The notes beneath the pieces are model-generated. The model was not told where the DNA came from. It saw only the letters and a program-made list of their open reading frames with translations, and searched no databases. The translations under genes and the position numbers were made by a program. From contig SXIZ01000163.1 in NCBI GenBank assembly GCA_005779525.1, forward strand, positions 1-42,033: a DNA stretch of 42,033 bases, given 5' to 3'. Shown piece after piece: positions 4,581 through 20,040 of this stretch. Position 1 is the stretch's first letter; each line of letters starts with the position of its first letter. This stretch comes from Methylococcaceae bacterium. Lineage in GTDB: Bacteria; Pseudomonadota; Gammaproteobacteria; Methylococcales; Methylomonadaceae.

Positions 4581-5103
4581 TGCGTATTCCAATCATTTAC
4601 AGGCCGATGCACCCAGGTGCGGGCCCGACATTAACTACAGGGTCAAAGTGACATTAAGCCCGACATTATCACCTAAACGTTACCTGGATTGCAATGTGCC
4701 GAAAGCCGTGGCAAGTAATTTCTAGTAAAAATTATTTTACGGAATACTTGAAAGAATTCAGTGTTCAAGTGTGTAGAATAGGGTAAAGATAATGATATGT
4801 GTTAGAGTAATTGCTGCTGCGCATCTTTGACTTTATATGATTAAATAGTCCCCTGTCATGCTGGTAGAGAAAGTATTAAGCGTTTCGGTGTAACGGAGGT
4901 GTGCAAATAAGTTGTTTTAAAATGATTTTAGTATATTGTTTAATAGTAAGAATTTAAAAAAATTGCTCAGTGACGGCCAGTTTACGTTGTAAATTCACTG
5001 AAAATATTTTTTTTTCGACTAGACTTAAACGCAGTAAGCCAAGCTTCTAGATGGTTAGGCAATGTTTTTGTTAAAAAATTTCTATTTATTTAAGGGGAAA
5101 ATA

Positions 5104-5466
5104 ATGGCGAGTATATTGGCAGTTGATGATTCTGCTTCAATGCGGCAGATGGTATCTTTCACGCTTAAAGGAGCAGGATATGATGTTGAAGAAGCGGTTG
5201 ATGGCGTTGATGCCTTAAGTAAAGCAAAAGCCAAAAAATTTGATTGTGTCGTAACCGACGTAAACATGCCCAATAAGGATGGTATCTCGTTAATTAAAGA
5301 TTTAAGAGCGCTTCCAGACTATAAATTTGTCCCATTGCTCATGTTGACGACCGAATCTGGCATGGATAAAAAACAGCAAGGTAAAGAAGCCGGGGCAACA
5401 GGGTGGATAGTCAAACCCTTTAATCCTGATCAGCTATTAAAAACAATCCAAAAAGTTCTAGGATAA
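5104..5466 (+). CDS. cheY: chemotaxis response regulator CheY (single receiver domain)
   Basis: The ATG at 5104 is preceded by AAGGGGA. 120 aa with receiver signature DDS...VVTDVNMPNKDG...T...KP. First gene of the che operon. Confidence 0.9.
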   Translation: MASILAVDDSASMRQMVSFTLKGAGYDVEEAVDGVDALSKAKAKKFDCVVTDVNMPNKDGISLIKDLRALPDYKFVPLLMLTTESGMDKKQQGKEAGATGWIVKPFNPDQLLKTIQKVLG

Positions 5467-5511
5467 GCGCTTATTGCATTGTCTGGTCTTTATTCGCGCG
5501 GGTAATTCTTT

Positions 5512-7602
5512 ATGGCTATTGATATGGCACAATTCCATCAGGTCTTTTTCGAAGAAAGTTTCGAAGGGCTTGAGGCAATGGAATCAGGATTGTTAAATCT
5601 TGACATGGGTGATGTGGATGTTGAAGAAATTAATACTATCTTTAGAGCGGCGCATTCTATAAAAGGTGGCAGTGGAACCTTTGGATTTACCGCTGTTTCG
5701 GATTTCACGCATGTCATGGAAACCTTATTGGATGAAATGCGTGATGGTCGACGTAAAGTCACACAACCTGCCGTCAATGTCCTGCTCGGGGCGGTAGATT
5801 GTTTGCGTGAAATGTTAACAGCGATTCAGAATGAGCAGGATATTGACACACAAAGTGTCGCAGAACACAAGCGACACCTGGATCAAGAGCTGCGCGGTGA
5901 AGTGAGTAATAGCGCTCAAGTCTCGCAGGTAGCTACAGCGAAACCCAAAACCGCTCCAGCGACGCTGAAATCAGTTGCACCTGGTTGGCGTATCACCTTT
6001 TGTCCGCATTTGGATATGTTAAAAACGGGAAACGATCCCGTGCGCATTTTCAGAGAATTGGCTAATCTTGGGGCCTTGGAAACCACGGTTGATCAAAAAG
6101 GTCTCCCCGATTTTTACGATTTGGACCCTGAAGAATGTTATTTATCTTGGGGGCTTAATGTCGCAGGGGATATTGCTCAGTCTAGCATAGAGGAAATATT
6201 TGATTGGGTTGAAGAAAATTGCGATTTATCTCTTCAATCATTTTCAGATTTGGCACAACGCGATTTAGCGCATCAACCCGGAGTTGTCGTATCGGATGAT
6301 GCCGATCCTACACATCATCAGCAAGATCTGAGTCACCCAGAACCTATCGAAGAGAGTTCGGACGCGGCAAAAGTTAAAACCGTTGCTAAAGAAGAAAGTA
6401 AGGTTGCCAATAAAGGTTCAAGCTCGATACGTGTCGAAACCAGCAAAATTGATACGCTGATTAACATGGTGGGTGAGCTGGTGATTACACAATCCATGCT
6501 GAGCTTGGTGGGTGAGCATTTTGAAATTGGCAAATTAGATCATTTAAAAAGTGGTTTAGCGCAGTTAGAGCGACATACTCGCGAATTACAAGAAAGTGTG
6601 ATGAATATTCGCATGTTGCCCATTAGCTTTGTATTTAGTCGTTTTCCTCGCTTAACCCATGATTTAAGTGCAAAATTAGGAAAAAAGATCGAGCTAAAAT
6701 TAGTCGGTGAGCACACAGAAGTCGATAAGACAGTGGTTGAATTAATCAGTGATCCACTTGTGCATTTAGTGCGTAATAGTTTAGATCATGGTATTGAAAT
6801 GCCGAATGAGCGTCTTGCGATGGGTAAACCAGAAACAGGCACAATTATTCTTGAAGCCTATCATCGGGGTGGCAATATTGTTATTGAAGTACGTGACGAT
6901 GGAAAAGGTTTAGATAAAGCCAAGTTACGTGCTAAGGCGATTGAAAAGGGTTTAATCGATAAAGATACGCCATTAACAGATAAGCAAACGTTCGAATTAA
7001 TTTTTATGCCGGGATTTTCCACTGCAGAGAAATTGACTGACATTTCTGGTCGGGGTGTAGGTATGGATGTCGTGCGCCGTAATATCCAGTCACTCGGTGG
7101 CAATATTGAAATCATTTCGGAGTTGGGTAAAGGGTCAACAATTGCTATTCACTTACCGTTGACCCTGGCAATTTTAGATGGTCAATCGATAGCCGTGGGT
7201 GATGAGACTTTTATCGTACCGCTAGTGTCCATCATTGAATCGATTAATGTGACTGATGCCATGACTAATAAAGTCGCTGGTAAGGGTGAAACCTTTAGAT
7301 TACGTGGGGATTATTTACCCATCATCCGCATGCATGAAATTTTTGATGTTAAAACTGCCAAAGCACAAAAACTCACTGAAGGCTTAGTGGTGGTGGTTGA
7401 GGGCCAAGGAATTCGTTGCGGATTGTTTGTAGATGATTTATTAGGGCAACAACAAGTAGTGATTAAATCATTAGAAGCTAATTATCGTCGGGTTGAAGGG
7501 GTTTCCGGGGCGACGATTTTAGGTGATGGATCAGTTGCGTTGATTTTGGACATTCCAGGTTTAGTTCGCTTGTCAAACCAAAAACATGCAGGTAGAGATT
7601 AA
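5512..7602 (+). CDS. cheA: chemotaxis histidine kinase CheA
   Basis: 696 aa. HPt motif HSIKGGSGTFGF, dimerisation and HATPase regions (DPLVHLVRNSLDHG, DDGKGLD, GRGVGMDVV), and a C-terminal CheW-like domain. Confidence 0.95.
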   Translation: MAIDMAQFHQVFFEESFEGLEAMESGLLNLDMGDVDVEEINTIFRAAHSIKGGSGTFGFTAVSDFTHVMETLLDEMRDGRRKVTQPAVNVLLGAVDCLREMLTAIQNEQDIDTQSVAEHKRHLDQELRGEVSNSAQVSQVATAKPKTAPATLKSVAPGWRITFCPHLDMLKTGNDPVRIFRELANLGALETTVDQKGLPDFYDLDPEECYLSWGLNVAGDIAQSSIEEIFDWVEENCDLSLQSFSDLAQRDLAHQPGVVVSDDADPTHHQQDLSHPEPIEESSDAAKVKTVAKEESKVANKGSSSIRVETSKIDTLINMVGELVITQSMLSLVGEHFEIGKLDHLKSGLAQLERHTRELQESVMNIRMLPISFVFSRFPRLTHDLSAKLGKKIELKLVGEHTEVDKTVVELISDPLVHLVRNSLDHGIEMPNERLAMGKPETGTIILEAYHRGGNIVIEVRDDGKGLDKAKLRAKAIEKGLIDKDTPLTDKQTFELIFMPGFSTAEKLTDISGRGVGMDVVRRNIQSLGGNIEIISELGKGSTIAIHLPLTLAILDGQSIAVGDETFIVPLVSIIESINVTDAMTNKVAGKGETFRLRGDYLPIIRMHEIFDVKTAKAQKLTEGLVVVVEGQGIRCGLFVDDLLGQQQVVIKSLEANYRRVEGVSGATILGDGSVALILDIPGLVRLSNQKHAGRD

Positions 7603-7607
7603 GACTT

Positions 7608-8150
7608 ATGTTGCAAACAGATACCAATAATGCCGACTATAAAACTGAAAATGAACCACGTTTAGCCAATATAGAACAATTTTTAAGTTTTGTGTTGGGA
7701 AATGAAGAATATGGGGTCAGTATTCTCCGGGTTCAGGAAATTCGCAGTTGGGAGCCTGTTTCACGGATTCCTAATGTTCCAGTCTACGAAAAAGGTGTCG
7801 TAAATTTACGTGGCGCGATTGTGCCAATTATTGATTTACGCGAACGCTTTAATTTAGGACGCGCTGAATATACGCCGCTGACGGTTGTCGTGGTTTTACA
7901 AGCCCAGGTGAACGGTAAATCACGTACCATGGGGGTGGTTGTCGACTCGGTATCCGATGTAGTGGATGTAGATAAATTCAGTATTCAACGTCCACCAGAT
8001 TTTGGGGCCAAAGTGAGTACCGAATTTATCAACGGCTTAGCTTCAGTTAATCAACGTATGGTGATGTTGTTGGATGTCGAAAAATTGCTTCGTCTAGATG
8101 GCATTGACGATATGGTCACCGAACTCGCTGAAAGTGAATCCAAGCACTAA
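7608..8150 (+). CDS. cheW: chemotaxis coupling protein CheW (copy 1)
   Basis: 180 aa. CheW-like domain ([22 protein letters not shown]...[16 protein letters not shown]). Starts 5 nt after cheA. Confidence 0.9.
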
Positions 8151-8179
8151 TTAATTTTCTACGTAGAAGGATATTTTAT

Positions 8180-10528
8180 ATGAGAGTTAACTTACCGATT
8201 ACAGATCGCGAAGTGGTTATGCAGCCCGGGACAATTCTCGTAACCAAAACCGATTTAAAAGGCATTATTACTTATGCCAATGACGCTTTTGTAGAGATAA
8301 GTGGCTTTACGCGTGAGGAGCTTATCGGTAAGAGCCATAACATCGTACGTCATCCAGACATGCCAGAAGTCGCTTTCCAGGATTTGTGGACTACAGTTAA
8401 ACAAGGACGACCTTGGACGGCCGCGGTAAAAAATCGTACCAAAAACGGTGATTATTATTGGGTCGAAGCTAATGTAACCCCTATGTTTGAGGGGCGAAAA
8501 GTCATAGGCTATCTCTCAGCCCGTTACGCCCCATCCCGCGAATTTATCAAGCAGTCGGCTGAGTGGTATCAGAAGTTGAATGCCTCGGGTGCGAAAACTA
8601 TGCGACCCACTGGAATGGTAGCTAAACTCAAATCCCTATTCGAATTACCACTTACATTTAAATTTAGCGTATTAGCTGTCGCGTATTTATTACCGCTGAT
8701 CTATTTCATGACTACGCTCTATCAGAATGGAAATTATTCTGCTTTAGCGATTGTAGGTGCGTGCGCGTTGACAGCGGTTGCCTTAAATTACAGTTTATTC
8801 CATTTGATCAATGCTACCTTAGAGAAAGGTACGGGAATCTGTTACCGCTTAGCCAATAAATCCTTTAGTAACAAAATAGACTTGAATCGTGAGGATAAGA
8901 TTGGAGATTTCTGGCGTGGCTTATATTCTATGCAGGTTCAGTTGCATGCAGACTTAGCATTCGCCCACGAAGAAGGGGCTAATGCTCAACGGATCAAACA
9001 AGCATTAGACAATGTCGCGTCGTCTGTGATGGTTGCAGATAATAATCTCAATATTATTTATCTCAATAATACGGTTAAAAAGTTATTTCAAAACGCTGAG
9101 AGTGATATTCAGAAGCAATTACCCAATTTTAATGCTGCAAAATTATTAGGATCTAATATTGATATTTTTCATAAAAATCCTGCGCATCAACGTCAGCTAT
9201 TGCTCAATTTGAGTTCTACTTTAAGTTCAAGTTTGCAAATTGGTGGTCGTTATTTAGACATCGTTGCTAATCCGGTGATTACTGAATCCGGCGTAAAAAT
9301 TGGGGTGGTGGTTGAATGGGTAGACCGTTCGAATGAAATTAAAATAGAAAATGAAATTGCAGTCCTCGTAGATGCGGTTAAATCCGGTGATTTGAGTAGT
9401 CGTATTGCCTTAGATGGGAAATCTGGATTTTACGCCAAGTTAAGTCAGGGTATCAATGAAATGAGTGATGTCATTGATCATGGTTTTGTGGATGTGTTGC
9501 AGGTGATGACCGGGATGGCTCAGGGTGATTTGACTCAATATGTGGATAATGATTATGCGGGTATTTATGCAGAATGCCGCGATCATATTAACGAGACCAC
9601 CGCTAAATTACGTGATGTATTTTCAGAAATTAGAGATGCAGCGGAATTTATCAATAACTCTTCACATGAGATTGCCAGTGGAAACAATAATTTATCACAG
9701 CGTGCGGAAGAACAAGCTTCAAGTTTAGAGCAGACCGCCTCAAGCATGGAAGAGTTGACCTCTACCGTTAAAAATAACTCCGATAATGCTCAACGTGCCA
9801 ATATCGTCGCCAGTGAGGCTAGAAATTTAGCTGAAAAAGGTGGGGATGTGGTTAATTCAGCGGTGGCGGCAATGCAAGAAATCAATGAAAGCAGCAACAA
9901 AATTGCTGAAATTATTGGTGTGATTGATGAAATTGCTTTCCAAACTAATCTCCTGGCGTTGAATGCCTCCGTTGAAGCGGCTAGAGCAGGTGAGCAAGGG
10001 CGAGGATTTTCGGTGGTCGCAACTGAAGTGCGCAATTTAGCGCAACGCAGTGCAACCGCTGCCCACCAAAGTAAAGAATTGATTCAAGCGAGCGTCTTAA
10101 AAGTCCGATCCGGTACACAATTTGTCAATGAAACTGGAAAATCACTCAATGCAATTGTGGATAGTATTAAACAAGTAGGTGATATAGTCGCTGAAATTGC
10201 TTCTGCCAGTGCACAGCAGTCCGCAGGAATTGAACAAGTCAATATGGCCGTTGCGCAAATGGACGAAATAACCCAACAAAATGCGGCTTTAGCTGAGCAA
10301 GCCTCGGCTGCAAGCATATCTATGAGTGAGCAAGCAGAGCGTATGACCGCTTTGCTAGATTTTTTTAAAGTCGAAGTCGATAGTAAACCTCTAAAGAATA
10401 ACACTGAGCTAAAAACCAATTCTCAGTCTAAGCATCAAAAAGCAACGCTTCAGACTTCTAAAATCTCCAAATCCACACACGCTGTGGATACTGAAACTGA
10501 TGCAGACGCAAATTGGGATGAGTTTTAG
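8180..10528 (+). CDS. methyl-accepting chemotaxis protein: N-terminal Aer-type PAS, TM hairpin, Aer2-type PAS, HAMP, signalling domain, C-terminal NWDEF pentapeptide
   Basis: 782 aa. The N-terminal PAS carries [17 protein letters not shown]...[12 protein letters not shown] (Aer-like). Two TM helices are joined by a ~6-residue loop. The internal PAS carries [16 protein letters not shown]...[10 protein letters not shown] (Aer2/McpB-like). Receptor tip is [34 protein letters not shown]. The protein ends in NWDEF. Confidence 0.9.
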
Positions 10529-10689
10529 CTATACCCTCTTTGGGATACACTTAAGAGTTGTCGTTGAATCAATACGAAAAGATTTTGAACAAGTGCATCC
10601 CATCGTATGAATTACGTGGACATTAGATTTGAAACAGGTTTGAAGATATCAGTTCCTGTAGGTATTAACTTAAGAGTGGAAAATTCATC

Positions 10690-11181
10690 ATGGTAAGCGA
10701 GACCGCAGATACTAAAAAAATTGAGCAATTTTTGACCTTTCAACTGGATGATGAAGCTTACGGCGTTGAAATTCTGAAGGTTCAGGAAATTCGTGGTTGG
10801 GAGCCTGTTCGGGTGATACCCAATACCCCGCATTACATTAAAGGGGCATTAAATTTGCGAGGCGCTATCGTCCCAATTGTGGATTTGCGGGAGCGTTTTG
10901 GCATGCAGGCTAAAGAGTATACTCCAGTCACCGTGGTCATCGTACTGTGCGTTGAAAATGCTTCAGGTAGCCATGTGATTGGACTAGTCGCGGATGCAGT
11001 TTCAGATGTTTTAGACATTCGCTCGGGAGATATAAAAAAATCTCCAGATCTGGGCTCTAAAATTGATACCCGATATATGCGCGGCATGTACGTATACAAG
11101 CAGGGTATGATTATGCTGCTGGATGCAGATCGATTGCTTAATCCGGCTGAATTTGAAGGCATCAGTCGTTTAGTGGAATAA
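10690..11181 (+). CDS. cheW: chemotaxis coupling protein CheW (copy 2)
   Basis: 163 aa. High similarity by eye to copy 1 across the core (FLTFQLDDEAYGVEILKVQEIRGWEPV...[16 protein letters not shown]). Confidence 0.9.
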   Translation: MVSETADTKKIEQFLTFQLDDEAYGVEILKVQEIRGWEPVRVIPNTPHYIKGALNLRGAIVPIVDLRERFGMQAKEYTPVTVVIVLCVENASGSHVIGLVADAVSDVLDIRSGDIKKSPDLGSKIDTRYMRGMYVYKQGMIMLLDADRLLNPAEFEGISRLVE

Positions 11182-11182
11182 T

Positions 11183-11944
11183 ATGAATGCGCGAGTGGTA
11201 GCAATTTTTAATCAGAAAGGCGGTGTGGGTAAAACAACTACTTCAACTAATCTGAGTCATGCGCTTGCAAAAGCAGGCAAAAAAGTAACCGTTATCGATT
11301 TTGATCCACAAGGACATTTGTCCATCTCACTGGGTATGTTAAATCGCCAAGCTTCTGGGATTGATGCCGTTTTACTCGATGGCGCAGATGTCTCTCAGTG
11401 TGTCATACCGATGCGAGAAAATCTTCAATTAATCCCTTCTGGACCCAAACTACATGACATCGAACTCATGAGCACGGGTGGCGCAAAGCGCAGTGAAATT
11501 TTGAGACATACTTTGTTAAATGACTTCCAAGACCAAGATTATGTGTTTATCGATTGTCCGCCTTCTTCTGGCTTATTGGTAGCAAATGTTTTATTTGCCA
11601 CGGATGAGATTTTAATTCCCATGAGCAGTGATTTTTTAGCATTGCAAGGGCTTTCAGATTTGATCAAAACTATTAGAAAATTTGAGCAGGTTTTAAAGAA
11701 AAAATACAAAACCCAAATAGTGATGGCACGCTATACTTCTAGTAGGAAATTTTCAAAAGAAGTCTTGGGTAAGTTACAGCAATATTTTCCCCAACAAATT
11801 TTAGCGACTGTAATCCGTGAGACTGCGGTATTGTCTGAATGCACTAGTTTTGGCATGACAATTTTTGAGTATCGACCTAAAAGTGTATCGGCGAATGATT
11901 TTCACAATTTAGCCAAAGATTTTTTGCAAGGTAAGGTGATGTAA
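11183..11944 (+). CDS. ParA/MinD-family P-loop ATPase embedded in the che operon
   Basis: 253 aa. Deviant Walker A FNQKGGVGKTTTS, A' box VIDFDPQGH, Walker B YVFIDCPPS. The ATG lies 1 nt after the cheW2 stop, and its TAA overlaps the next ATG (TAATG). Confidence 0.9.
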   Translation: MNARVVAIFNQKGGVGKTTTSTNLSHALAKAGKKVTVIDFDPQGHLSISLGMLNRQASGIDAVLLDGADVSQCVIPMRENLQLIPSGPKLHDIELMSTGGAKRSEILRHTLLNDFQDQDYVFIDCPPSSGLLVANVLFATDEILIPMSSDFLALQGLSDLIKTIRKFEQVLKKKYKTQIVMARYTSSRKFSKEVLGKLQQYFPQQILATVIRETAVLSECTSFGMTIFEYRPKSVSANDFHNLAKDFLQGKVM

Positions 11945-12393
11945 TGGCAAAAAAACAAGAAGAAAGTTTGCTGGGTTATGATCCATTAGCGTGGATGAAT
12001 GAGGAACCGCAAGGCGAGGAAGTTTCTGCTGCGCAAGAGCAAGAGCAAGTAGCGTCTGCTACCGAGCACAGTTCCAATGCTCAAGTAACTCAAGAAAATC
12101 AACTCAAAGTGGTTTTGGAAGCGGTTCAAAATATTCAAAATGTCGCTAATTTACGTGAGGAGATTATTAGTAAATTAGAAAATAGTTTGGGAGCTATCGA
12201 AATTGATGCCTCTGCGGTAAATTCAATTGATACTGCCACCTTACAATTATTTGTGGCCCTTAAAAAAGAAACCGATCGATTAGAACGGGTATTAGTTTTC
12301 GATTTTCCTTCAGAAAGATTTCTGGAGGCCGCTAATCTAATAGGGGTCAGCAAATTATTAGAGCTTGATAAATCTGCCTCTGGATTTTTCTGA
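11944..12393 (+). CDS. STAS-domain protein with basic N-terminal peptide and acidic linker
   Basis: 149 aa. N-terminus MAKKQEESLLGYDPLAWM, then an E/Q-rich linker of about 45 aa. The C-terminal ~95 aa show a STAS-like pattern (IEIDASAVNSIDTATLQLFVAL...VLVFDFPSERFLEAANLIGVSKLL). The STAS assignment is by eye only. Confidence 0.65.
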   Translation: MAKKQEESLLGYDPLAWMNEEPQGEEVSAAQEQEQVASATEHSSNAQVTQENQLKVVLEAVQNIQNVANLREEIISKLENSLGAIEIDASAVNSIDTATLQLFVALKKETDRLERVLVFDFPSERFLEAANLIGVSKLLELDKSASGFF

Positions 12394-12473
12394 GGGTTTC
12401 CCAATTTGTACGATGAACAAAATATCTGCACAAGATATTTTGCAGTTTTGATAGTTGATTAGGGGATTACACA

Positions 12474-13304
12474 GTGAGTAAAGCACGTGAATTTGAATAT
12501 ACGCGGGAGGATTTTAATTTTTTGCGAAAATTATCGAACGAATATTCAGGTATCATAGTTTCTGATGACAAATTTGATATGTTTTATTCGCGCCTATCGA
12601 AACGGGTTAGAGTGCTAGGTCTGCAAAGTTTTAAAGAATATTGTGTTTATTTGGAGAATAATCCAGAAAAAGAATTTACCGATTTTATGAATTCAGTGAC
12701 GACGAATTTGACGTCATTTTTTCGTGAAAATCATCATTTTGAATATCTGAAACAGACGCTCATTCCGATATTACTGAAAAAAAACAGTGCCAGCAAAAAA
12801 ATAACGCTGTGGTCGGCAGGATGTTCAACCGGGGAAGAGCCGTATTCTTTGGCGATGACCTTGTTAGAAAATGTACCCGCTGGCTGGGAAATAAAAATAC
12901 TGGCGACCGATTTAGATACGAATGTACTGAAAGCTTCCGCTGAAGGTATTTACACAACAGACCGTATTGGTGGGCTATCGCCCGAGCGTTTAAAACGCTG
13001 GTTTAAACAAGGGACGGGTGTGAATGCTACCAAGATTAAAGTTAAACCGGAATTACAGGCATTAATTCGCTTCCGCCAATTGAACCTCATGCGTGAATGG
13101 CCCATGAAGGGAAAATTTGATTTTATTTTTTGTAGGAATGTTTTGATTTATTTTGATCGGGAAACTAAAAGTCAGTTAGCCCAACGTTACGCGCAATTTT
13201 TAGAGCCCGCTGGACTACTGTTTATTGGGCATTCAGAGTCACTGCACCAATTAACTACAGATTTTGAGTTAATTGGTAATACCATTTATAAGAAAAAAGG
13301 CTAA
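12474..13304 (+). CDS. cheR: chemotaxis protein methyltransferase CheR
   Basis: 276 aa, GTG start. Motifs TNLTSFFRE, WSAGCSTGEEPYSLAM and FCRNVLIYFD are typical of CheR. Confidence 0.92.
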   Translation: MSKAREFEYTREDFNFLRKLSNEYSGIIVSDDKFDMFYSRLSKRVRVLGLQSFKEYCVYLENNPEKEFTDFMNSVTTNLTSFFRENHHFEYLKQTLIPILLKKNSASKKITLWSAGCSTGEEPYSLAMTLLENVPAGWEIKILATDLDTNVLKASAEGIYTTDRIGGLSPERLKRWFKQGTGVNATKIKVKPELQALIRFRQLNLMREWPMKGKFDFIFCRNVLIYFDRETKSQLAQRYAQFLEPAGLLFIGHSESLHQLTTDFELIGNTIYKKKG

Positions 13305-13310
13305 TAACTA

Positions 13311-13937
13311 ATGGAGTTAAGTCCACCTTCGGTTGCAGGTTTTGAAAATATTTCTCGCTATTGGGACAAAATTAATAATACGGTGGCTGCTAAGCTACTC
13401 CCTGGGGAGTATTATGTCACCAAAGAAAATGAGATGATTACCACGGTGCTTGGCTCTTGCATTTCGGCCTGTATACGCGACAAGATCTCAGGGATTGGAG
13501 GCATGAACCATTTTATGCTTCCCGAAACTTCGCAATCGCGGCTGGATGAAGGGCGCGAGTCAGTAGTAGGTAATGCAACACGCTATGGCAACTACGCTAT
13601 GGAGCATTTGATCAATACCATTTTGGCGAATGGTGGTAAGCGTAAAAATCTCGAAGTTAAAGTATTTGGAGGAGGGAAAATTATCGCGTCACTCGGCGAT
13701 GTCGGGCTAAAAAATATTACTTTTGTTATGGATTATATAGATACTGAGGGACTACTCTTGGTCTCTAAGGATTTAGGCGATATTTATCCGCGTAAAATAA
13801 ATTTTTACCCGCAGTCAGGTCGTGTACGTATGAAGAAAATTCAGGATTTGCATAATGACACGATTGCTCTACGCGAAAGTCAATACCGCCGTACCATTAA
13901 AGATGTACCCGTGGTTGGTGATGTGGAATTGTTTTGA
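13311..13937 (+). CDS. cheD: chemoreceptor glutamine deamidase CheD
   Basis: 208 aa. CheD signature (TVLGSCISACIRD...GMNHFMLP...KVFGGG). Confidence 0.88.
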   Translation: MELSPPSVAGFENISRYWDKINNTVAAKLLPGEYYVTKENEMITTVLGSCISACIRDKISGIGGMNHFMLPETSQSRLDEGRESVVGNATRYGNYAMEHLINTILANGGKRKNLEVKVFGGGKIIASLGDVGLKNITFVMDYIDTEGLLLVSKDLGDIYPRKINFYPQSGRVRMKKIQDLHNDTIALRESQYRRTIKDVPVVGDVELF

Positions 13938-13946
13938 GAAGTGTAC

Positions 13947-15059
13947 ATGGAAAAAATAAAACTGCTTATAGTTGATGATTCGGCGCTGATACGCAAAATT
14001 CTGACTGAAATTTTTAATTCAGCCCCCGATATAGAAGTGGTTGGAGTTGCTGAAGATCCGCTGATTGCTAGGGAGTTGATCAAAAAACTTAACCCAGACG
14101 TATTAACTTTAGATGTTGAAATGCCGCGTATGGATGGCATAACGTTTTTACGCAATTTAATGCGTTTGCGCCCCATGCCTGTAGTGATGATTTCAACTTT
14201 AACTGAAAAAGGTGCGGATATCACTCTTGAAGCTTTGGGTATCGGGGCTGTTGATTTTGTGCCAAAACCTAAAGTCGATGTCAAAAGTACTTTTAATGAC
14301 TATGCTGAAGATATTATTGCTAAAGTCCGTATGGCCTCTAAAGCTAAAATTCAGGGCGTGGAAGTTACAAATTCTACTTCAGGGAGTAAGCGGGCTGTAA
14401 AATCTTTACCTCCTACGGTTCTCGGATGCTCACAAAATAATTCGGTGGACATTATTATTCCAGCTCTCCTAGAGCGGCCACTAATCAGAAAAACTGAAAA
14501 AATTATTGCCTTAGGCTCGTCGACTGGCGGTACCGAAGCAGTAAAAGTTGTCGCGCGCGAGTTGCCTGAGAATACGCCCGCCATTTTGATCTCGCAACAT
14601 TTGCCTGTTGCGTTTAGTGCGTCTTTTGCCAAGCATGTGAACGATATCTCTCCCATGCAGGTGTCACTTGCTGAAGATGGGCAACCCATTTTGCCTGGCA
14701 ATATTTATATTGCGCCTGGAGATAAACATTTGTTAGTGTTGCGGGAGGCAGGGCGGTATATTTGTCGTTTGCATAGTGGTCCGCCAGTGAATCGGCACAA
14801 ACCCTCGGTTGATGTGATGTTTCGTTCAGTTGCGCAGCAGGTAGGATCTAATGCTATTGGGGTGATGTTAACCGGAATGGGTGCGGATGGTGCACGGTGC
14901 ATGAAGGAAATGCGTGATGCGGGCGCTAGAAATATCGTTCAAGATGAGGAATCGAGTGTGGTTTGGGGAATGCCAGGCGAAGCTTACCGATTAGGAGCGG
15001 CTGAAGTGGTAGTTCCTTTAAATCAGATTGCTAAACAAATACTTAAATTTGCGAGTTAA
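13947..15059 (+). CDS. cheB: protein-glutamate methylesterase/deamidase CheB
   Basis: The track ORF starts at GTG 13941; the ATG at 13947 gives [12 protein letters not shown]. It has a receiver domain plus a methylesterase domain ([21 protein letters not shown]). Confidence 0.92.
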
Positions 15060-15070
15060 CGGGAGGCAAA

Positions 15071-16261
15071 ATGAAACACTTTCTATCTAGAAACTGGTTG
15101 CCTATCGCATTGACGCTAATTTTGTTGGTTCTGCCAATGGCATTGCCAACACAGTACCTTTTTTGGATTGCCGTACCCCTTATTTCTTTAACGTGGGCCA
15201 TTAACGGTTATCAGCAAGTGAAACAAGCTGAGCAACAGCAGTTGGAGCTTGATCGACAAAATCAGTTGCAAAATATTGCGGCGATAGATACTTATTTGCA
15301 GGCTTTAGATGGCTGTATTAAACAAGAAGTGCAGCAGTTTATTGCCGATTTAGGACAGCTTCGCTCTGTAGTCGGTGACGCTGTGAACACCATGGGAAAT
15401 AGTTTTAAAAGCTTGCATAGCTTGTCATCCGATCAGGCGAGAATCGTCTTCTCAATTGTGGGCAATACTGGGAAAAATGATAAGGCAATTAGTTTTACGC
15501 GCTTTGCCGAAGAAACCGATCAAGTACTACGCTATTTTATCGATCATATTTTATTGATTAGCAAACAAAGTATGGAAATGGTGGCGGTGATTGGCGATTT
15601 GCGGGAACACATGGGTTTAGTAGAAAAACTGGTGAGTGATGTTCAAGGGATTGCTGATCAAACCAATCTGTTGGCGCTAAATGCAGCTATTGAGGCCGCT
15701 CGTGCTGGTGAAGCGGGGCGTGGCTTTGCCGTTGTTGCCGAAGAGGTGCGTAATTTATCGAAAAATTCCGATAAATTTAGCGAAGAAATTCGCAAAGTGG
15801 TTAATGCTTCGAAATCCAACATCGAGCGAGCGAATCAAATGATAGAGACCATGGCCTCCAAAGACATGAATGTTGCAATAACCTCTAAATCTAAAATTGA
15901 TCAAATGATGGCGGATATTGCGGTTATGAATGTCGCGATGGAGCAGAAATTATTGCAGGTCTCAGAATTAAGCAAACATTTGGATTTTACAGTGAACGAT
16001 GCCGTTAGAGGCTTGCAGTTTGAAGATTTAACCCGTCAATTAATCGAATACCTTCAAGGAAATACGCGGCATTTCCAAGTCCTTGCTGAGGAAGTACGTT
16101 TAGGCTTAGGGATTTTTAAAACCGATGATCCGCAATTGTGGGTGGGTGAACTGGAAAGTGGTCAAAAACGTTTACTCACGATGCAGCAAGATTGGCAAGA
16201 TAAAGGAAAAAAAATTGTGGCTCAGAACTCAATGTCGGAAGGCGAAATTGAAATGTTCTAG
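15071..16261 (+). CDS. short membrane-anchored methyl-accepting chemotaxis protein without a periplasmic sensor domain
   Basis: 396 aa. Two adjacent N-terminal TM helices have almost no loop between them. Coiled coil follows, then the tip [34 protein letters not shown]. The protein ends in EIEMF. GGGAGG RBS. Confidence 0.88.
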
Positions 16262-16315
16262 ATAAACAACTATCCTCATAGTATTTAAGAATAACGAAAC
16301 TTAGAGAGAAATATA

Positions 16316-16621
16316 ATGGCGGTAACAACTAACTTCGATGCATCAAAATCGATTTTAACTATCAAAATTGCTGGTCGATTTGATTTTGGTGCCCATCAAG
16401 ATTTTCGGAATGCTATAGATCAAATTAAGTTGACTACCAAACAAGTTGTGATTGATTTTTATGCGACAGAGTACATGGATAGCTCGGCTTTAGGTATGCT
16501 GTTGGTATTACGCGATAAAGTCAGTACGAGCTCTCAATCTATTAAGTTAATGAATATTCGGCCAGAAGTTAGAAAGATATTGGAAATTGCGAATTTTGAT
16601 AAATTATTTAATCTGGGATAA
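16316..16621 (+). CDS. STAS-domain anti-sigma-factor antagonist (SpoIIAA/RsbV/CrsA/HsbA-like)
   Basis: 101 aa. Typical STAS pattern with a candidate phospho-serine in YMDSSALGMLLVL, followed by NIRPEVRKILEIANFDKLF. Confidence 0.85.
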   Translation: MAVTTNFDASKSILTIKIAGRFDFGAHQDFRNAIDQIKLTTKQVVIDFYATEYMDSSALGMLLVLRDKVSTSSQSIKLMNIRPEVRKILEIANFDKLFNLG

Positions 16622-16829
16622 TAGGTGAGTTGCTGAAAAAGCCAAGAATGTATGATGTTCTATGCGTGATATTAATTTAAAAGTATTGTATTCTAGAAAA
16701 TTGAATGCTTTGTTTGAAGTGCTATCTTTACCGCAGCAACACACTTTTGGGCTGAGTCAAGTGACATTCAACGCTGTTTTATGAGCTTGGCGATAAATGC
16801 AGAATTTAATGGTTTAAAAATAAAAAAAT

Positions 16830-18512
16830 ATGACCGATTCATTAGCTTTACCTCATGCCAGAATTCTCGTTGCTGACGATAGTCGCTTACAACGTGAAAT
16901 GCTGGCGAGCTTGTTAGGTGATATCGGCTACCAAATTATCTTGGCAGAAGATGGTTTTGCAGCATTAGAGCTATTCAAAGCGCACCAACCTGATTTAGTG
17001 TTACTGGATATTATGATGCCTAAGTTGGACGGCATCCAAGTGGCTAGAGAAATTGCTGCACTTTTGAAAAATGATTATGTCCCGATTGTGTTCATTACCA
17101 GTATGGATACCGAAGACTTACTCAATAAATGCGTTGCTGCGGGGGGTGATGACTTTATTAACAAGCCTTATAACAGTGTTCTGCTCAGTGCCAAAATCAA
17201 TTCCTTATTACGCGTTAAAAGGCTGTATGAAGAACTGCGCAGTCAAAAACATGAGTTGCTAAAGTATCAGGAACTATACGAACAAGAACAACAAGTCGCA
17301 GCAAGTTTATATAAAAATATTTTACACGCGGATTTTGTTGAAACTTCCATCTTACGCTATTCACTGTCCCCAATGGCCTTATTTAATGGGGATATTCTAT
17401 TAACGTCCAAGGCTCCAGGAAATCGCTTTTATGTGTTGTTAGGGGATTTTACGGGGCATGGATTATCCGCGTCCATCGGCGCTGAGCCAACGGCACAAAT
17501 ATTCTATGGGATGGCGCGTAAAGGCTTCGCTGGCGAAGAAATTATTAAAGAAATCAATCGCAAATTACATAAGCTTTTACCGGTAAATATGTTTCTGGCG
17601 ACCACCTTGGTGACTTTACGCGCCGATTCCAGTTTTATGGAAATCATTACCTGTGGTTTACCCGCACATTATCTGTTACATAAACCGACGCGCAAAATCC
17701 GCAGTATTGAATCTAAGAACTTTCCCTTAGGCATCATGGCGACTTATGAGCCTAAAGTGGAATATTTTGAAATTGATCACCATGATTATCTGTATTTGTT
17801 CACAGACGGTGTGATTGAGGCCCAAAATATCGCAGGGCAGCAATTTGATATTTCTGGGGTCATGGCGTGTCTGGAAAATGAAGTCGAGTCACCGTATGAC
17901 AGTATCTTACATAATCTTGCCGTGCATACTCAGGGTTTGGAGCAGCAAGATGATGTCACTTTTGTGGAATTGCATTGTGATTTGAAAAATGCAATTTGGC
18001 AATCAGTCGGTAAGCCACTGGCGGTACAAAAATGTCCTGCATTAACCTGGAGTAGTAAGTTAAGCTTCAGTGTCGAAACTTTGCAACAAGTTAACCCGGT
18101 TCCTGTGATGTTGAATATGCTGATGGATATTCAGGCATTACAGAGTTTCCAGGAAGCGATTTTTTGTATCGTAAATGAATTATTTATCAATGCCTTGGAT
18201 TATGGGCTATTGGCGATGGATGGCAAATTAAAACTGACTTCCGAAGGTTTAATTAAATTTCATGCGATTAAAGAACAACGCTTACAAGAAGTCAAAACTG
18301 GGTCTATAGTGGTAGATTTTCAGCATCAACCTACCGAGGTGGGCGGGCGTTTACAAATTAGCTTAAAAGATTCCGGCGCAGGATTTGATTTTGCAGCGGA
18401 ATTGAAACCAAATCGTGGCATTTATCGGGTACATACCCTGTGCTCTAAATTGGAATATGGCAATGGTGGGCGTGAAGTTTTAGCTGTTTTTGATTGGAGC
18501 TATCAAGAATAA
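16830..18512 (+). CDS. three-domain response regulator: receiver + PP2C/SpoIIE phosphatase + RsbW-like GHKL kinase/anti-sigma domain (CrsR/HsbR-like)
   Basis: 560 aa. Receiver (ILVADDS, DLVLLDIMMPKLDG, KP). PP2C motifs (GDFTGHGLSAS, YLYLFTDGVIEA, QQDDVTFVEL). C-terminal N-box-like ELFINALDYG and G1-like LKDSGAGFD. Confidence 0.85.
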   Translation: MTDSLALPHARILVADDSRLQREMLASLLGDIGYQIILAEDGFAALELFKAHQPDLVLLDIMMPKLDGIQVAREIAALLKNDYVPIVFITSMDTEDLLNKCVAAGGDDFINKPYNSVLLSAKINSLLRVKRLYEELRSQKHELLKYQELYEQEQQVAASLYKNILHADFVETSILRYSLSPMALFNGDILLTSKAPGNRFYVLLGDFTGHGLSASIGAEPTAQIFYGMARKGFAGEEIIKEINRKLHKLLPVNMFLATTLVTLRADSSFMEIITCGLPAHYLLHKPTRKIRSIESKNFPLGIMATYEPKVEYFEIDHHDYLYLFTDGVIEAQNIAGQQFDISGVMACLENEVESPYDSILHNLAVHTQGLEQQDDVTFVELHCDLKNAIWQSVGKPLAVQKCPALTWSSKLSFSVETLQQVNPVPVMLNMLMDIQALQSFQEAIFCIVNELFINALDYGLLAMDGKLKLTSEGLIKFHAIKEQRLQEVKTGSIVVDFQHQPTEVGGRLQISLKDSGAGFDFAAELKPNRGIYRVHTLCSKLEYGNGGREVLAVFDWSYQE

Positions 18513-18574: not shown

Positions 18575-19189
18575 ATGAGAAAAAATCAAACAAATTCGCA
18601 GTTCGTGGCTGTGGCTTCAATTGCAGCGGAACTCAGTGCCGTTATGGATGTGGCTAAGGAAATATCTCTGGCGGCGGCAAACGCAAAAGCGATTGCCTTT
18701 CGGGCGGGGGAGAAAGCTAAAGGTTTTCAACCTATCACAGATTTTATTAATGAGTTGGCCAAGGACACCATTGAATTAGTTAATGAAATTAATCAACACG
18801 CCATGCAATTATATCAATTGACTGTGGATGAATATCGCATGACAGAAGCGCATAACAAATTTGAATTAGCCGCAAAATATGCCAAAGGTGCGCAGTATGA
18901 GCAGTCATTAAATGCGCCGCGGCTAAAAGCACAGCAAAACATGCAGGATTGTTTGCGTCAATTTAATGCCCATATTGCACAATTACTCGATCAACTGGGT
19001 GAAGTGATGCACCCTGCCCGTGCTGCACGAGTGATCGCTGCGAACTCACGTATTGAGGCTTCGCAAGCTGGAGAATACTTACAAAGTTTACAGGCAGTAG
19101 CCGAGAGCGTCGATAACGCGGCGCAAGTTATTCACGATAACGTGCAGCGGTGCCGCAGCGCTTTATCATTTATTACGATCACAGAATAG
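18575..19189 (+). CDS. soluble protein with two degenerate MCP receptor-tip motifs
   Basis: 204 aa with a good RBS. No TM segment or HAMP domain. Residues ~31-63 (SLAAANAKAIAFRAGEKAKGFQPITDFINELA) and ~150-184 (ARVIAANSRIEASQAGEYLQSLQAVAESVDNAA) both align with the tips of the two MCPs in this operon. Confidence 0.7.
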   Translation: MRKNQTNSQFVAVASIAAELSAVMDVAKEISLAAANAKAIAFRAGEKAKGFQPITDFINELAKDTIELVNEINQHAMQLYQLTVDEYRMTEAHNKFELAAKYAKGAQYEQSLNAPRLKAQQNMQDCLRQFNAHIAQLLDQLGEVMHPARAARVIAANSRIEASQAGEYLQSLQAVAESVDNAAQVIHDNVQRCRSALSFITITE

Positions 19190-19217: not shown

Positions 19218-19946
19218 ATGAAAATGACAAAAATTTACGAAGGATCGTATCAGTGGATTATGTATGGGCGTGATGAAAATAAACCCAACAATATTATTGA
19301 TACCAATCAATATATTGTAAGAACTGCGAATCGTTGTTTGTTGATTGATCCAGGTGGAATAGAATTATTTGCTCCGATGCTGGCAGCGGTATTACACCAT
19401 GCACCTGTCGAGCAAATCACTGATTTATTTGCGTCGCATCAAGATCCAGATATTATTTCTTCCTTGGGATTATGGGATCAGGCTTTGCCCAATGCTAAAC
19501 TTCACGCCCCTGCAATTTGGGAAGGTTTTTTGCGCCATTTCGGCTGTGATAGCATTGAATATGTCGCTATTCCAGATAATGGTGGGGTAATTCGATTAGA
19601 AAATGTAGAATTAAAAATTATTCCTGCGCATTATTTGCACTCTTCAGGGAATTTTCATATTTATGATCCCAATGCCAAAATCTTGTTTTCCGGAGATGTG
19701 GGTGCTGCCTTGGAAACACCGGGTGCGCCAATGTATGTCGATAATTTTGATGCTCACGTAGAAAAAATGCGTTACTTTCACCAACGTTGGATGCCATCGA
19801 ATCAAGCAAAACGCAATTGGATAGAACGTGTCCGAGAACTGGATATTGACGTGCTCGCACCACAACATGGTCGTGTCTTTAAAGGTGATGATGTTCGCCG
19901 CTTCCTGGATTGGTTTGAAGGATTACAAGTGGGGACCGCTGTTTAA
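19218..19946 (+). CDS. metallo-beta-lactamase-fold protein, ODP (oxygen-binding di-iron protein)/flavodiiron-core-like
   Basis: 242 aa. MBL-type ligand pattern LLIDPGG...SHQDPD (H74, D76, D78)...PAHYLHS (H138/H141)...FSGD (D160)...PQHG (H217). No flavodoxin domain. Last gene of the che operon. Confidence 0.65.
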   Translation: MKMTKIYEGSYQWIMYGRDENKPNNIIDTNQYIVRTANRCLLIDPGGIELFAPMLAAVLHHAPVEQITDLFASHQDPDIISSLGLWDQALPNAKLHAPAIWEGFLRHFGCDSIEYVAIPDNGGVIRLENVELKIIPAHYLHSSGNFHIYDPNAKILFSGDVGAALETPGAPMYVDNFDAHVEKMRYFHQRWMPSNQAKRNWIERVRELDIDVLAPQHGRVFKGDDVRRFLDWFEGLQVGTAV

Positions 19947-19989: not shown

Positions 19990-20019
19990 TTGACAAACCC
20001 CCTTTAAAACCGTTATCTT
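19990..20019 (+). promoter_or_regulatory. candidate sigma70 promoter for thiD (TTGACA-N18-TATCTT)
   Basis: A perfect -35 TTGACA lies at 19990-19995 and a weak -10 TATCTT at 20014-20019. The -10 overlaps the terminator stem. Pattern match only. Confidence 0.3.
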
Positions 20020-20040
20020 TCCTGATAACGGTTTTTTTAT
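20006..20040 (+). terminator. Rho-independent terminator closing the chemosensory operon
   Basis: AAAACCGTTATC (20006-20017), loop TTTCCT, GATAACGGTTTT (20024-20035), running into a T-rich tract (TTTTTTTATTTT). Confidence 0.85.

What the first reader, a model, noticed from the sequence alone, without database searches (positions are those of the whole stretch)
19218..19946. ODP-like di-metal MBL-fold protein as terminal gene of the che operon
Seen: a 242-aa stand-alone MBL-fold protein with candidate ligands H74-x-D76-x-D78, H138/H141, D160 and H217. It has no flavodoxin or other domain. It lies 28 nt after the receptor-tip protein and immediately before the operon terminator. Established: ODP (oxygen-binding di-iron protein) is a flavodiiron-core homologue encoded next to small soluble chemoreceptors in Treponema denticola and Thermotoga maritima. 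It acts as an O2/Fe(II) sensor for chemotaxis. Its canonical motif as I recall is H-x-E-x-D-H. Here the motif reads H-Q-D-P-D-I: the Glu position is Asp and the second His is missing, so the metal site may differ. Inference: this is a third O2/metal-type input to the array, paired with the tip mimic.
Basis: partly seen in the sequence, partly recalled or inferred. Interest (0 to 1): 0.65.

Follow-up and report, generated by a model that had tools for sequence, protein, structure and literature searches.

The report
Di-iron oxygen sensor (ODP) with mini-receptor partner
The gene is a clear orthologue of the known bacterial oxygen/iron sensor ODP in a methane-oxidising bacterium, with the normal ODP metal-binding motif, always encoded beside an unusually small receptor-like partner; this is an expected family member, not a new kind of sensor.

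Summary
The 242-aa ORF at 19218-19946 is real and lies as described: 28 nt after a 204-aa gene and 60 nt before a terminator-like hairpin. It is a full-length member of the ODP family (Pfam PF19583, 244 bits). It is 44% and 38% identical to the two crystallised ODPs. Flavodiiron proteins match far more weakly, and hydrolytic MBLs more weakly still.

Both solved ODPs read HQDPDV, and H-x-D-x-D plus a hydrophobic residue dominates 150 diverse family representatives. H-x-E-x-D-H is the flavodiiron motif. There is therefore no reason to expect a different metal site.

The window comes from an uncultured Methylococcales methanotroph. Orthologues are 78-98% identical across the order, and NCBI already names some "oxygen-binding di-iron domain-containing protein".

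The 204-aa gene precedes ODP in 79 of 79 evaluable loci, but only 49 of 72 loci place the pair in a che operon. The invariant unit is the pair, not the operon.

The partner is more unusual than ODP. It carries two MCP-tip-derived motifs and is predicted to form a single-chain four-helix bundle. The TM14-type partners of other phyla are long single hairpins encoded downstream of ODP.

Verdict: a new member of a known kind, with a variant partner.

The parts
19218..19946 (+). ODP (oxygen-binding di-iron protein) orthologue, 242 aa, stand-alone MBL/flavodiiron-core fold
   Evidence: Pfam PF19583 at 244 bits, full profile 1-194. Solved ODPs 6QRQ/6QWO at E 2.8e-63 and 6QNM/6R9N at E 9e-55.
19437..19451 (+). 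Codons for H74-Q-D76-P-D78, the canonical ODP first metal motif (FDP equivalent: H-x-E-x-D-H)
   Evidence: Invariant with both solved ODPs. H/D/D in the large majority of 150 representatives. Aligned to FDP nHtEPDH.
19629..19640 (+). Codons for H138-Y-L-H141. H141 aligns with the flavodiiron His ligand. H138 is His in the subgroup containing both solved ODPs and Pro in another subgroup.
19695..19697 (+). Codon for D160 (S-G-D), aligned with the bridging Asp of flavodiiron proteins
19779..19781 (+). Codon for H188 (F-H-x-R-x-M), invariant in ODPs and absent from flavodiiron proteins. It is a candidate replacement for the missing FDP His or a second-sphere residue (inference).
   Evidence: Invariant in the 40-sequence diverse alignment A4. 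No His at the aligned FDP position.
19866..19868 (+). Codon for H217 (P-Q-H-G), aligned with the last flavodiiron His ligand (P-g-H-G)
18575..19189 (+). Cognate partner: 204-aa sensor-less, receptor-tip-derived protein, predicted to be a single-chain four-helix bundle
   Evidence: Immediately upstream of ODP in 79/79 evaluable loci. Best PDB matches are TM14. AF2 model with pLDDT 82 and pTM 0.71, helices 3-48, 52-102, 110-162 and 166-200. Fold matches are single-chain four-helix bundles.
18674..18727 (+). Tip motif 1 of the partner (residues 34-51, AANAKAIAFRAGEKAKGF); predicted turn at 49-51
   Evidence: Invariant block 8-66. Aligned to the TM14 tip. Sub-threshold Pfam MCPsignal match.
19037..19090 (+). 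Tip motif 2 of the partner (residues 155-172, AANSRIEASQAGEYLQSL); predicted turn at 163-165
   Evidence: Invariant block 144-187. The C-terminal half alone finds the TM14 tip in register, E 0.004. The two halves align in register, E 0.004.
20006..20035 (+). Terminator-like hairpin followed by a T-run, closing the same-strand gene cluster
5062..18512 (+). Upstream same-strand chemosensory cluster: CheY 5062-5466, CheA 5512-7602, CheW 7608-8150, Aer2-like PAS-PAS-HAMP-MCP 8180-10528, CheW 10690-11181, ParA-like 11183-11944, STAS 11944-12393, CheR 12474-13304, CheD 13311-13937, CheB 13941-15059, soluble MCP 15071-16261, STAS 16316-16621, REC-PP2C (plus weak HATPase_c_2) 16830-18512
   Evidence: Pfam and NCBIfam scans. 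The composition parallels S. oneidensis Che1, class F7, with CrsR/CrsA (PMC9855816).

Best explanation
The gene encodes an orthologue of ODP, the stand-alone flavodiiron-core protein that binds two irons and O2 and serves as an Fe(II)/O2 sensor for chemosensory signalling.

Shown: family membership, full-length similarity to both crystallised ODPs, identity of all candidate metal ligands, and obligate genetic coupling to a sensor-less receptor-tip protein.

Inferred: ODP loads Fe(II) and binds O2 at the di-iron site. Its metal/O2 state is passed by direct contact to the 204-aa partner. The partner docks through its receptor-like tip onto CheA/CheW of the co-encoded Aer2-containing, F7-like array and changes kinase output. 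The partner has helices of only about 50 residues and no room for a methylation region, so this input would not adapt. In this genome the array's outputs probably include a CrsR/CrsA-like REC-PP2C/STAS partner switch as well as CheY. The O2/Fe signal may therefore tune a stress or lifestyle response, not only motility.
For: - Family: Pfam ODP at 244 bits against a 27.2 cutoff, over the full profile. Solved ODPs match at E 2.8e-63 and 9e-55 over residues 9-240.
- Profile hierarchy against the PDB: ODP 1e-105, flavodiiron proteins 1e-19 to 1e-9, hydrolytic MBLs 1e-8 or weaker.
- Ligands: H74, D76, D78, H138, H141, D160 and H217 are invariant with both solved ODPs and conserved family-wide.
- Sensor role: ODP domains elsewhere are fused to GGDEF (13), hemerythrin (9), REC (6), PAS, GAF, HATPase and MCP domains, as expected for a sensory module.
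- Pairing here: the partner is adjacent in 79/79 evaluable Methylococcales loci.
- Pairing elsewhere: ODP sits next to a sensor-less MCP in Thermotoga (TM14 itself, E 1e-91), Synergistota, Nitrospirota and Aquificota.
- Published function: ODP is an O2 sensor for chemotaxis in T. denticola, genetically coupled to the sensor-less MCP TDE2496, which modulates CheA (PMC7666581).
- Partner: both halves match the TM14 CheA/CheW-binding tip.
- Operon: the composition parallels S. oneidensis Che1/F7 with CrsR/CrsA.
Against: - No biochemical data exist for this protein or any Methylococcales orthologue.
- The ODP structure model failed (pLDDT 42), so ligand geometry rests on sequence alignment alone.
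- The partner scores below Pfam's MCPsignal threshold (28.1 against 34.6 bits). Its tip is strongly derived (no GRGF in hairpin 2, and a Pro just after tip 1), so CheA/CheW binding is not assured.
- In 23 of 72 loci the pair has no che gene within the available upstream DNA, so coupling to this particular array is not obligatory.
- The primary ODP paper (Muok et al. 2019, PNAS) could not be read here. The Fe-peroxo mechanism is cited from its title and from memory.
Confidence: 0.7

Rival explanations
1. The architecture and signalling route are the same, but the physiological ligand in methanotrophs is not O2. The di-iron site might report NO, H2O2, Fe(II) availability or redox state instead.
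For: The closest non-ODP relatives are flavodiiron O2/NO reductases, including NorV and Moorella NO reductase. The title of the original ODP paper already describes dual Fe(II) and O2 sensing (reference quoted). The operon already contains an Aer2-like PAS receptor, a likely O2 sensor, so a second O2 sensor would be partly redundant.
Against: The ligand set is identical to that of the two ODPs characterised as O2 binders. No evidence here points to a different ligand.
Confidence: 0.15
2. The pair acts independently of the co-encoded array. The mini-receptor could be an ODP-controlled decoy that titrates CheA/CheW or caps array assembly. Alternatively the pair could signal to another target altogether.
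For: 23 of 72 orthologous loci have no che gene nearby. In Methylomonas sp. TEB the pair sits between queC and miaB. The partner has no adaptation region and a derived tip. In T. denticola, deleting ODP changes CheA ordering, yet no density in the array could be assigned to ODP (PMC7666581).
Against: 49 of 72 loci place the pair directly after cheB or the sMCP-STAS(-REC-PP2C) block of the same che cluster. A divergent out-group pair directly follows a cheA (L086).
Confidence: 0.1
3. It is an enzyme rather than a sensor: either a flavodiiron-like O2/NO scavenger using an external reductant, or a hydrolytic metallo-beta-lactamase-fold enzyme.
For: It has an MBL fold and matches the Lactamase_B Pfam model. 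Databases often label orthologues 'MBL fold metallo-hydrolase' or 'flavorubredoxin'.
Against: It has no flavodoxin domain and no HxHxDH Zn motif. Hydrolytic MBLs match only at E 1e-8 to 1e-3, against 1e-105 for ODP. The family is coupled to signalling proteins, either genetically or by fusion.
Confidence: 0.05

Closest known systems
ODP of Thermotoga maritima (PDB 6QRQ/6QWO) and Treponema denticola TDE2498 (PDB 6QNM/6R9N)
   Same: Stand-alone ~250-aa flavodiiron-core domain, 44% and 38% identity over the full length. The H-Q-D-P-D motif and the H138, H141, D160, H188 and H217 positions are identical. Each is encoded next to a sensor-less, MCP-derived protein.
   Different: The host is an aerobic/microaerophilic gammaproteobacterial methanotroph, not an anaerobe or thermophile. 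The partner gene is upstream rather than downstream. The partner is 204 aa with two tip motifs, not a 276-295-aa single hairpin. Here the pair ends an Aer2-containing, F7-like cluster with a REC-PP2C/STAS module.
Flavodiiron proteins (FprA, ROO, NorV; e.g. PDB 1VME, 1YCF, 1E5D, 4D02)
   Same: Same MBL-like di-iron core. Six of the seven ligand positions align: H, E/D, D, H, D, H.
   Different: FDPs have H-x-E-x-D-H and a C-terminal flavodoxin domain, and they are O2/NO reductases. This protein has H-x-D-x-D-I and no flavodoxin domain, and matches FDP sequences only at E 1e-19 or weaker with a family profile.
TM14 (T. maritima soluble chemoreceptor, PDB 3G67/3G6B), as relative of the partner protein
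   Same: It is the best PDB match for both halves of the 204-aa partner. Both proteins lack transmembrane and sensor modules, and both are encoded next to ODP.
   Different: In TM14 orthologues about 140 residues precede one canonical tip, giving one long hairpin that, from the published 3G67 structure (from memory), pairs as a homodimer. The window's protein has about 45 residues before tip 1 and a second tip motif at 155-172. It is predicted to be a single-chain four-helix bundle with both tips at one end.
Shewanella oneidensis Che1 and P. aeruginosa Che2 (F7 chemosensory systems with Aer2; CrsR/CrsA partner switch)
   Same: The cluster has CheY-CheA-CheW-Aer2-like ... CheR-CheD-CheB, a second soluble MCP, a STAS protein and a REC-PP2C protein with a weak HATPase_c_2 tail, as in CrsA/CrsR (PMC9855816).
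   Different: The description of the Shewanella che1 locus read here lists no ODP or tip-protein pair. The ParA-like and 149-aa STAS genes are extra. Formal F7 classification was not done.

Membership tests
ODP (oxygen-binding di-iron protein, Pfam PF19583) | Scores above the curated family threshold over the whole domain | tested here: met
   244.1 bits against a 27.2 cutoff, profile positions 1-194 of 194.
ODP (oxygen-binding di-iron protein, Pfam PF19583) | Full-length similarity to the experimentally characterised ODPs, and closer to them than to flavodiiron or hydrolytic MBL proteins | tested here: met
   E 2.8e-63 and 9e-55, with 44% and 38% identity. Profile hierarchy: ODP 1e-105, FDP 1e-19 or weaker, hydrolases 1e-8 or weaker.
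ODP (oxygen-binding di-iron protein, Pfam PF19583) | ODP-type metal motif H-x-D-x-D (no second His) plus the conserved His/Asp/His positions | tested here: met
   H74, D76, D78, H138, H141, D160 and H217 are identical to both solved ODPs. The pattern dominates 150 representatives. Ligand roles are inferred from alignment to FDP ligands, not from coordinates.
ODP (oxygen-binding di-iron protein, Pfam PF19583) | Stand-alone core without a flavodoxin domain | tested here: met
   242 aa, with only the ODP and Lactamase_B models matching.
ODP (oxygen-binding di-iron protein, Pfam PF19583) | Genetic coupling to a sensor-less, soluble MCP-derived receptor | tested here: met
   Partner adjacent in 79/79 evaluable loci. 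The partner is a variant: upstream, 204 aa, with a double tip.
ODP (oxygen-binding di-iron protein, Pfam PF19583) | Binds two Fe and O2 (stabilised iron-peroxy species) and modulates CheA through its receptor | not testable with these tools
   Needs ICP-MS, UV-vis O2 titration and CheA phosphorylation assays.
Flavodiiron proteins (FprA/ROO/NorV) | H-x-E-x-D-H motif | tested here: not met
   The window reads H-Q-D-P-D-I, whereas FDP 1VME reads H-t-E-P-D-H at the aligned columns.
Flavodiiron proteins (FprA/ROO/NorV) | C-terminal flavodoxin (FMN) domain | tested here: not met
   No such domain; the protein ends at residue 242.
Hydrolytic metallo-beta-lactamase-fold enzymes (glyoxalase II, lactonase, RNase Z) | Zn-type H-x-H-x-D-H motif and best similarity to hydrolases | tested here: not met
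   The motif is absent. The best hydrolase matches are at E 1e-4 with the single sequence and 4e-8 with the profile.
Methyl-accepting chemotaxis protein signalling domain (Pfam PF00015), for the 204-aa partner | Scores above the curated threshold | tested here: not met
   28.1 bits against a 34.6 cutoff, matching residues 14-94 only. About half of the orthologues carry a precomputed PF00015 hit. It is derived from an MCP tip but is not a regular member.
TM14-type ODP receptor (single long hairpin), for the 204-aa partner | One canonical tip flanked by two long arms (>100 residues each), encoded downstream of ODP | tested here: not met
   About 45 residues precede tip 1, a second tip motif lies at 155-172, four helices are predicted, and the gene is upstream of ODP.
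F7-type chemosensory system (Che2 of P. aeruginosa, Che1 of S. oneidensis) | Aer2-type receptor with CheY-CheA-CheW and CheR-CheD-CheB in one cluster, assigned with class-specific profiles | tested here: inconclusive
   Gene content and order match. Class-specific (MiST-type) profiles were not available.

The most novel reading that the evidence does not exclude
The short double-tip protein plus ODP could be a second, undescribed architecture of the ODP sensor module. In this reading the partner is a natural single-chain 'pseudo-dimer' of a receptor tip that plugs a non-adapting O2/Fe(II) signal into an F7 array. In methanotrophs that signal would mainly drive a CrsR/CrsA-like partner switch (a sigma-factor or stress/lifestyle decision at the oxic-anoxic interface) rather than flagellar taxis.
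Probability: 0.2. Interest if true: 0.65.

Novelty: new member of a known kind. Interest (0 to 1): 0.35.

Why it matters
Type I methanotrophs live at narrow O2/CH4 counter-gradients, so how they sense O2 and iron affects where methane is consumed. This result shows that nearly every sampled Methylococcales lineage keeps an ODP sensor with intact di-iron ligands. It gives a concrete candidate, beside Aer2, for O2/Fe sensing in these organisms.

It also corrects a likely recurring annotation error. ODP's H-x-D-x-D motif is normal for ODP and is not a degenerate flavodiiron motif. Many orthologues are still labelled 'MBL fold metallo-hydrolase' or 'flavorubredoxin'.

The more original by-product is the partner. 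A natural single-chain, double-tip mini-receptor would be a useful minimal system for studying how receptor tips control CheA.

Tried and rejected
1. The AlphaFold2 model of ODP, built from 16 close orthologues, was unusable (pLDDT 42.5).
2. The primary ODP paper (Muok et al. 2019, PNAS) is not held under its DOI, PMC id or PubMed id. Its content is cited only through PMC7666581 and the reference list of PMC9855402-independent source PMC9665402.
3. The genome scan kept only the 80 best loci, all Methylococcales. Wider contexts had to be sampled one at a time.
4. Profile-profile comparison of the two halves of the partner gave only weak support for an internal repeat (E 0.004, probability 8.7%). 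The repeat claim rests more on the independent match of each half to the TM14 tip and on the four-helix model.
5. The fold search with the partner model did not return MCPs at the top. 2CH7 ranked 43rd, and the best hits were designed single-chain four-helix bundles. This is taken as evidence of bundle topology, not of homology.
6. Model coordinates are not exposed, so the claim that both tips lie at one end is deduced from the helix and turn order.
7. I first mislabelled 6QRQ as the T. denticola protein. One search shows it is the Thermotoga sequence.
8. Considered and rejected: a hydrolytic MBL, a truncated flavodiiron reductase, and a chance ORF (see rivals and membership tests).
9. A 2026 aerotaxis review (PMC13401364) does not mention ODP. 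No paper on ODP in methanotrophs was found.

Full report
**1. Observation**

The ORF 19218..19946 (+) is real, starts with ATG and encodes 242 aa. It starts 28 nt after the stop of a 204-aa ORF (18575..19189). A terminator-like hairpin with a 12-bp stem and T-run follows at 20006..20035, 60 nt downstream. Pfam reports only ODP (PF19583; 244.1 bits against a 27.2 cutoff; profile 1-194 of 194) and the overlapping general Lactamase_B model. No flavodoxin or other domain is present.

**2. What it is**

Searched against all PDB sequences, the protein finds the two crystallised oxygen-binding di-iron proteins and essentially nothing else. 6QRQ/6QWO matches at E 2.8e-63 and 6QNM/6R9N at E 9e-55, both over residues 9-240. 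The next hits are methyl parathion hydrolase-type MBLs at E 1e-4, over about 70 residues only. Identity is 44% and 38%. 6QRQ is the Thermotoga protein, being 87-97% identical to Thermotoga sequences, so 6QNM is the T. denticola one.

A profile of 40 diverse family members gives a clean hierarchy against the PDB:
- ODP: 2e-105 and 9e-100
- flavodiiron proteins (1VME, 1YCF, 1E5D, 4D02 and others): 3.5e-19 to 7e-9
- PqsE, lactonases, glyoxalase II and beta-lactamases: 4e-8 to 1e-3

**3. The motif question**

That recollection belongs to the flavodiiron proteins. In the profile alignment, ODP 'sHqDPDv' lies over 'nHtEPDH' of T. maritima FDP 1VME. Both solved ODPs read HQDPDV at this position.

I examined the 150 best representatives from an exhaustive search of 1.84 billion cluster representatives (881 clusters at E<=1e-3). 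Among them:
- Positions 74/76/78 are H/D/D in the large majority.
- Position 79 is I, V, L or C, with a His in only one aberrant sequence.
- H141, D160 and H217 are conserved.
- Position 138 is His in the subgroup holding the window protein and both crystal structures, and Pro (as in FDPs) in a second subgroup.
- H188 is invariant in the 40-sequence alignment and has no FDP counterpart. It may replace the missing FDP His or act in the second sphere; this is inference.

All seven candidate ligands are identical in the window protein and in both characterised ODPs. Nothing in the sequence points to a different metal site.

**4. Where it comes from and how common it is**

The 120 best of 4391 homologues are all Methylococcales (Methylomonas, Methylobacter, Methyloprofundus, Methylicorpusculum, Methylomicrobium) at 81-98% identity. 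Source names range from 'MBL fold metallo-hydrolase', 'flavoprotein' and 'flavorubredoxin' to 'oxygen-binding di-iron domain-containing protein [Methylomonas albis]'. The closest genome locus is a Lac Pavin Methylococcales MAG at 90% identity. The protein is thus an ordinary, already partly annotated orthologue, conserved across an order of type I methanotrophs.

**5. Surroundings**

Upstream on the same strand lie these genes:
- CheY, CheA and CheW
- an Aer2-like PAS-PAS-HAMP-MCP
- a second CheW
- a ParA-like ATPase and a 149-aa STAS protein
- CheR, CheD and CheB
- a 396-aa soluble MCP
- a 101-aa STAS protein
- a 560-aa REC-PP2C protein whose C-terminus weakly resembles an anti-sigma-type HATPase_c_2 (E 0.003)

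This content parallels the S. oneidensis che1 locus (class F7). That locus has CheA/Y/W/R/D/B, Aer2, a second MCP and the CrsR/CrsA partner switch implicated in RpoS control (PMC9855816).

I compared the window's operon proteins with 80 Methylococcales loci by tblastn. The 204-aa gene lies about 620-700 nt (up to about 1 kb) upstream of the ODP start in 79 of 79 evaluable loci; the eightieth is cut 153 nt upstream of ODP. The wider context varies among the 72 loci with at least 3.5 kb of upstream DNA:

| Context | Loci |
|---|---|
| CheB-sMCP-STAS-REC-PP2C-pair (window-like) | 6 (+1 partial) |
| CheB-sMCP-STAS-pair | 8 |
| CheB-pair | 34 |
| No che gene in the available upstream DNA | 23 |

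In Methylomonas sp. TEB the pair sits between queC and miaB. The conserved unit is therefore the two-gene pair. 'Terminal gene of the che operon' is true for this genome and for about two-thirds of relatives, but not for all.

**6. The pairing is the known ODP architecture, in a variant form**

The literature states that T. denticola ODP (TDE2498) is an O2 sensor for chemotaxis. It is genetically coupled to TDE2496, an MCP homologue without transmembrane or sensing modules that modulates CheA (PMC7666581).

I verified the pairing directly in four other phyla. In Thermotoga sp. KOL6, Aminobacterium mobile, Thermodesulfovibrio and Hydrogenivirga, a 276-295-aa gene follows ODP within 4-40 nt. The Thermotoga one is TM14 itself (E 1.3e-91 to 3G67). 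All four carry a canonical tip ([25 protein letters not shown]) preceded by about 140 residues.

The window's partner differs from these in several ways:
- It lies upstream of ODP and is only 204 aa.
- It scores below the MCPsignal threshold (28.1 against 34.6 bits).
- It has two invariant blocks (residues 8-66 and 144-187), each with a tip-like motif: AANAKAIAFRAGEKAKGF and AANSRIEASQAGEYLQSL.
- Each half independently finds the TM14 tip as its best PDB match, in register (E about 1e-6 for the first with a profile; E 0.004 for residues 111-204 alone).
- The halves align to each other weakly (E 0.004).
- An AlphaFold2 model (pLDDT 82, pTM 0.71) has four helices (3-48, 52-102, 110-162, 166-200), with turns exactly at the two motifs.
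- Its closest folds are single-chain ~200-aa four-helix bundles (TM up to 0.62), not MCP hairpins.

In an up-down-up-down bundle both tip turns lie at the same end. The protein therefore looks like a covalent pseudo-dimer of a receptor tip with no room for an adaptation region.

Its family is small: 479 hits, with the top hits all Methylococcales. Even so, very divergent versions (18-22% identity, both motifs kept) precede the nearest non-Methylococcales ODPs, once directly after a cheA. ODP-receptor modules thus appear to come in two architectures.

**7. How it most likely works**

Shown:
- ODP family membership
- an intact ODP ligand set
- obligate coupling to a receptor-tip-derived protein
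- location, in this genome, at the end of an Aer2-containing, F7-like cluster
- family-wide use of the ODP domain as a sensory module, with 42 long representatives fused to GGDEF (13), hemerythrin (9), REC (6), PAS, GAF, HATPase, MCP and globin domains

Inferred:
- Fe(II) loading and O2 binding at the di-iron site alter ODP's contact with the mini-receptor.
- The mini-receptor docks on CheA/CheW through tip 1 and shifts kinase activity.
- The input does not adapt.
- Outputs here include CheY and probably the REC-PP2C/STAS switch.

Confidence is about 0.95 that this is a true ODP orthologue and about 0.7 for the signalling scheme as a whole. Three rivals are detailed separately: a different ligand (NO, H2O2 or Fe only), action as a decoy or independently of this array, and an enzymatic role.

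**8. Novelty and score**

The ODP itself is a new member of a known kind, and public annotation already recognises some orthologues. Three points of moderate interest remain:
- an ODP sensor conserved throughout an ecologically important group of methanotrophs, for which I found no literature
- its attachment to an F7-like system with a partner-switch output
- the unusual double-tip mini-receptor

Overall interest is 0.35.

Noticed in passing
window 18575-19189: The 204-aa partner of ODP has two invariant MCP-tip-like motifs (residues 34-51 and 155-172). It is predicted to be a single-chain four-helix bundle with both tips at one end, like a natural covalent pseudo-dimer of a receptor tip. It differs from the TM14-type single hairpin.
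   Followed up: yes
L081-L084 compared with L085-L087 and L001-L080: ODP-receptor modules come in two gene architectures. In Thermotogota, Synergistota, Nitrospirota and Aquificota, ODP is followed by a 276-295-aa TM14-type MCP. In Methylococcales and the nearest out-group ODPs (about 50% identity), a ~204-216-aa double-motif protein precedes ODP.
   Followed up: partly
window 16316-18512: A STAS protein (101 aa) and a REC-PP2C protein (560 aa) lie inside the che cluster. The C-terminal ~180 aa of the latter weakly match the anti-sigma-type HATPase_c_2 model (E 0.003). This resembles the CrsA/CrsR RpoS partner switch of the S. oneidensis che1 locus. The block is present in only some Methylococcales loci.
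   Followed up: partly
window 11183-12393: A ParA/MinD-like ATPase (253 aa) and a 149-aa STAS-domain protein are inserted between the second cheW and cheR. They are conserved in most related che clusters and may act in array positioning.
   Followed up: no
L026 9345-10729 and other class-D loci: In 23 of 72 Methylococcales loci the tip-ODP pair has no che gene within the available upstream DNA. In Methylomonas sp. TEB it sits between queC and miaB in a tol-pal/que/ybeY housekeeping region. The pair therefore behaves as a relocatable two-gene module.
   Followed up: partly
Representatives P0244-P0390 (alignment A5): The ODP domain is fused in other organisms to GGDEF (13 of 42 long representatives), hemerythrin (9), REC (6), PAS, GAF, HATPase_c, MCP, globin and a protein kinase. 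A second subgroup has Pro at position 138 and Tyr at positions 107 and 180.
   Followed up: partly
L082 1930-3978; L083 5692-7362: PAS-GGDEF-EAL proteins lie directly beside the ODP-MCP pair in Aminobacterium and Thermodesulfovibrio. This hints at a link between ODP modules and c-di-GMP signalling.
   Followed up: no
window 15071-16261: The 396-aa soluble MCP has an N-terminal ~165 residues with no recognisable sensor domain in Pfam.
   Followed up: no
window 20055-21183 and 21188-25810: Downstream of the terminator lie a ThiD-like HMP-P kinase gene and a cytochrome c ORF whose longest reading overlaps it by about 130 nt, so its true start is probably later. A 1540-aa ORF on the minus strand follows. 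The ThiD and cytochrome c genes are syntenic only in the two closest MAGs (L001, L002).
   Followed up: no
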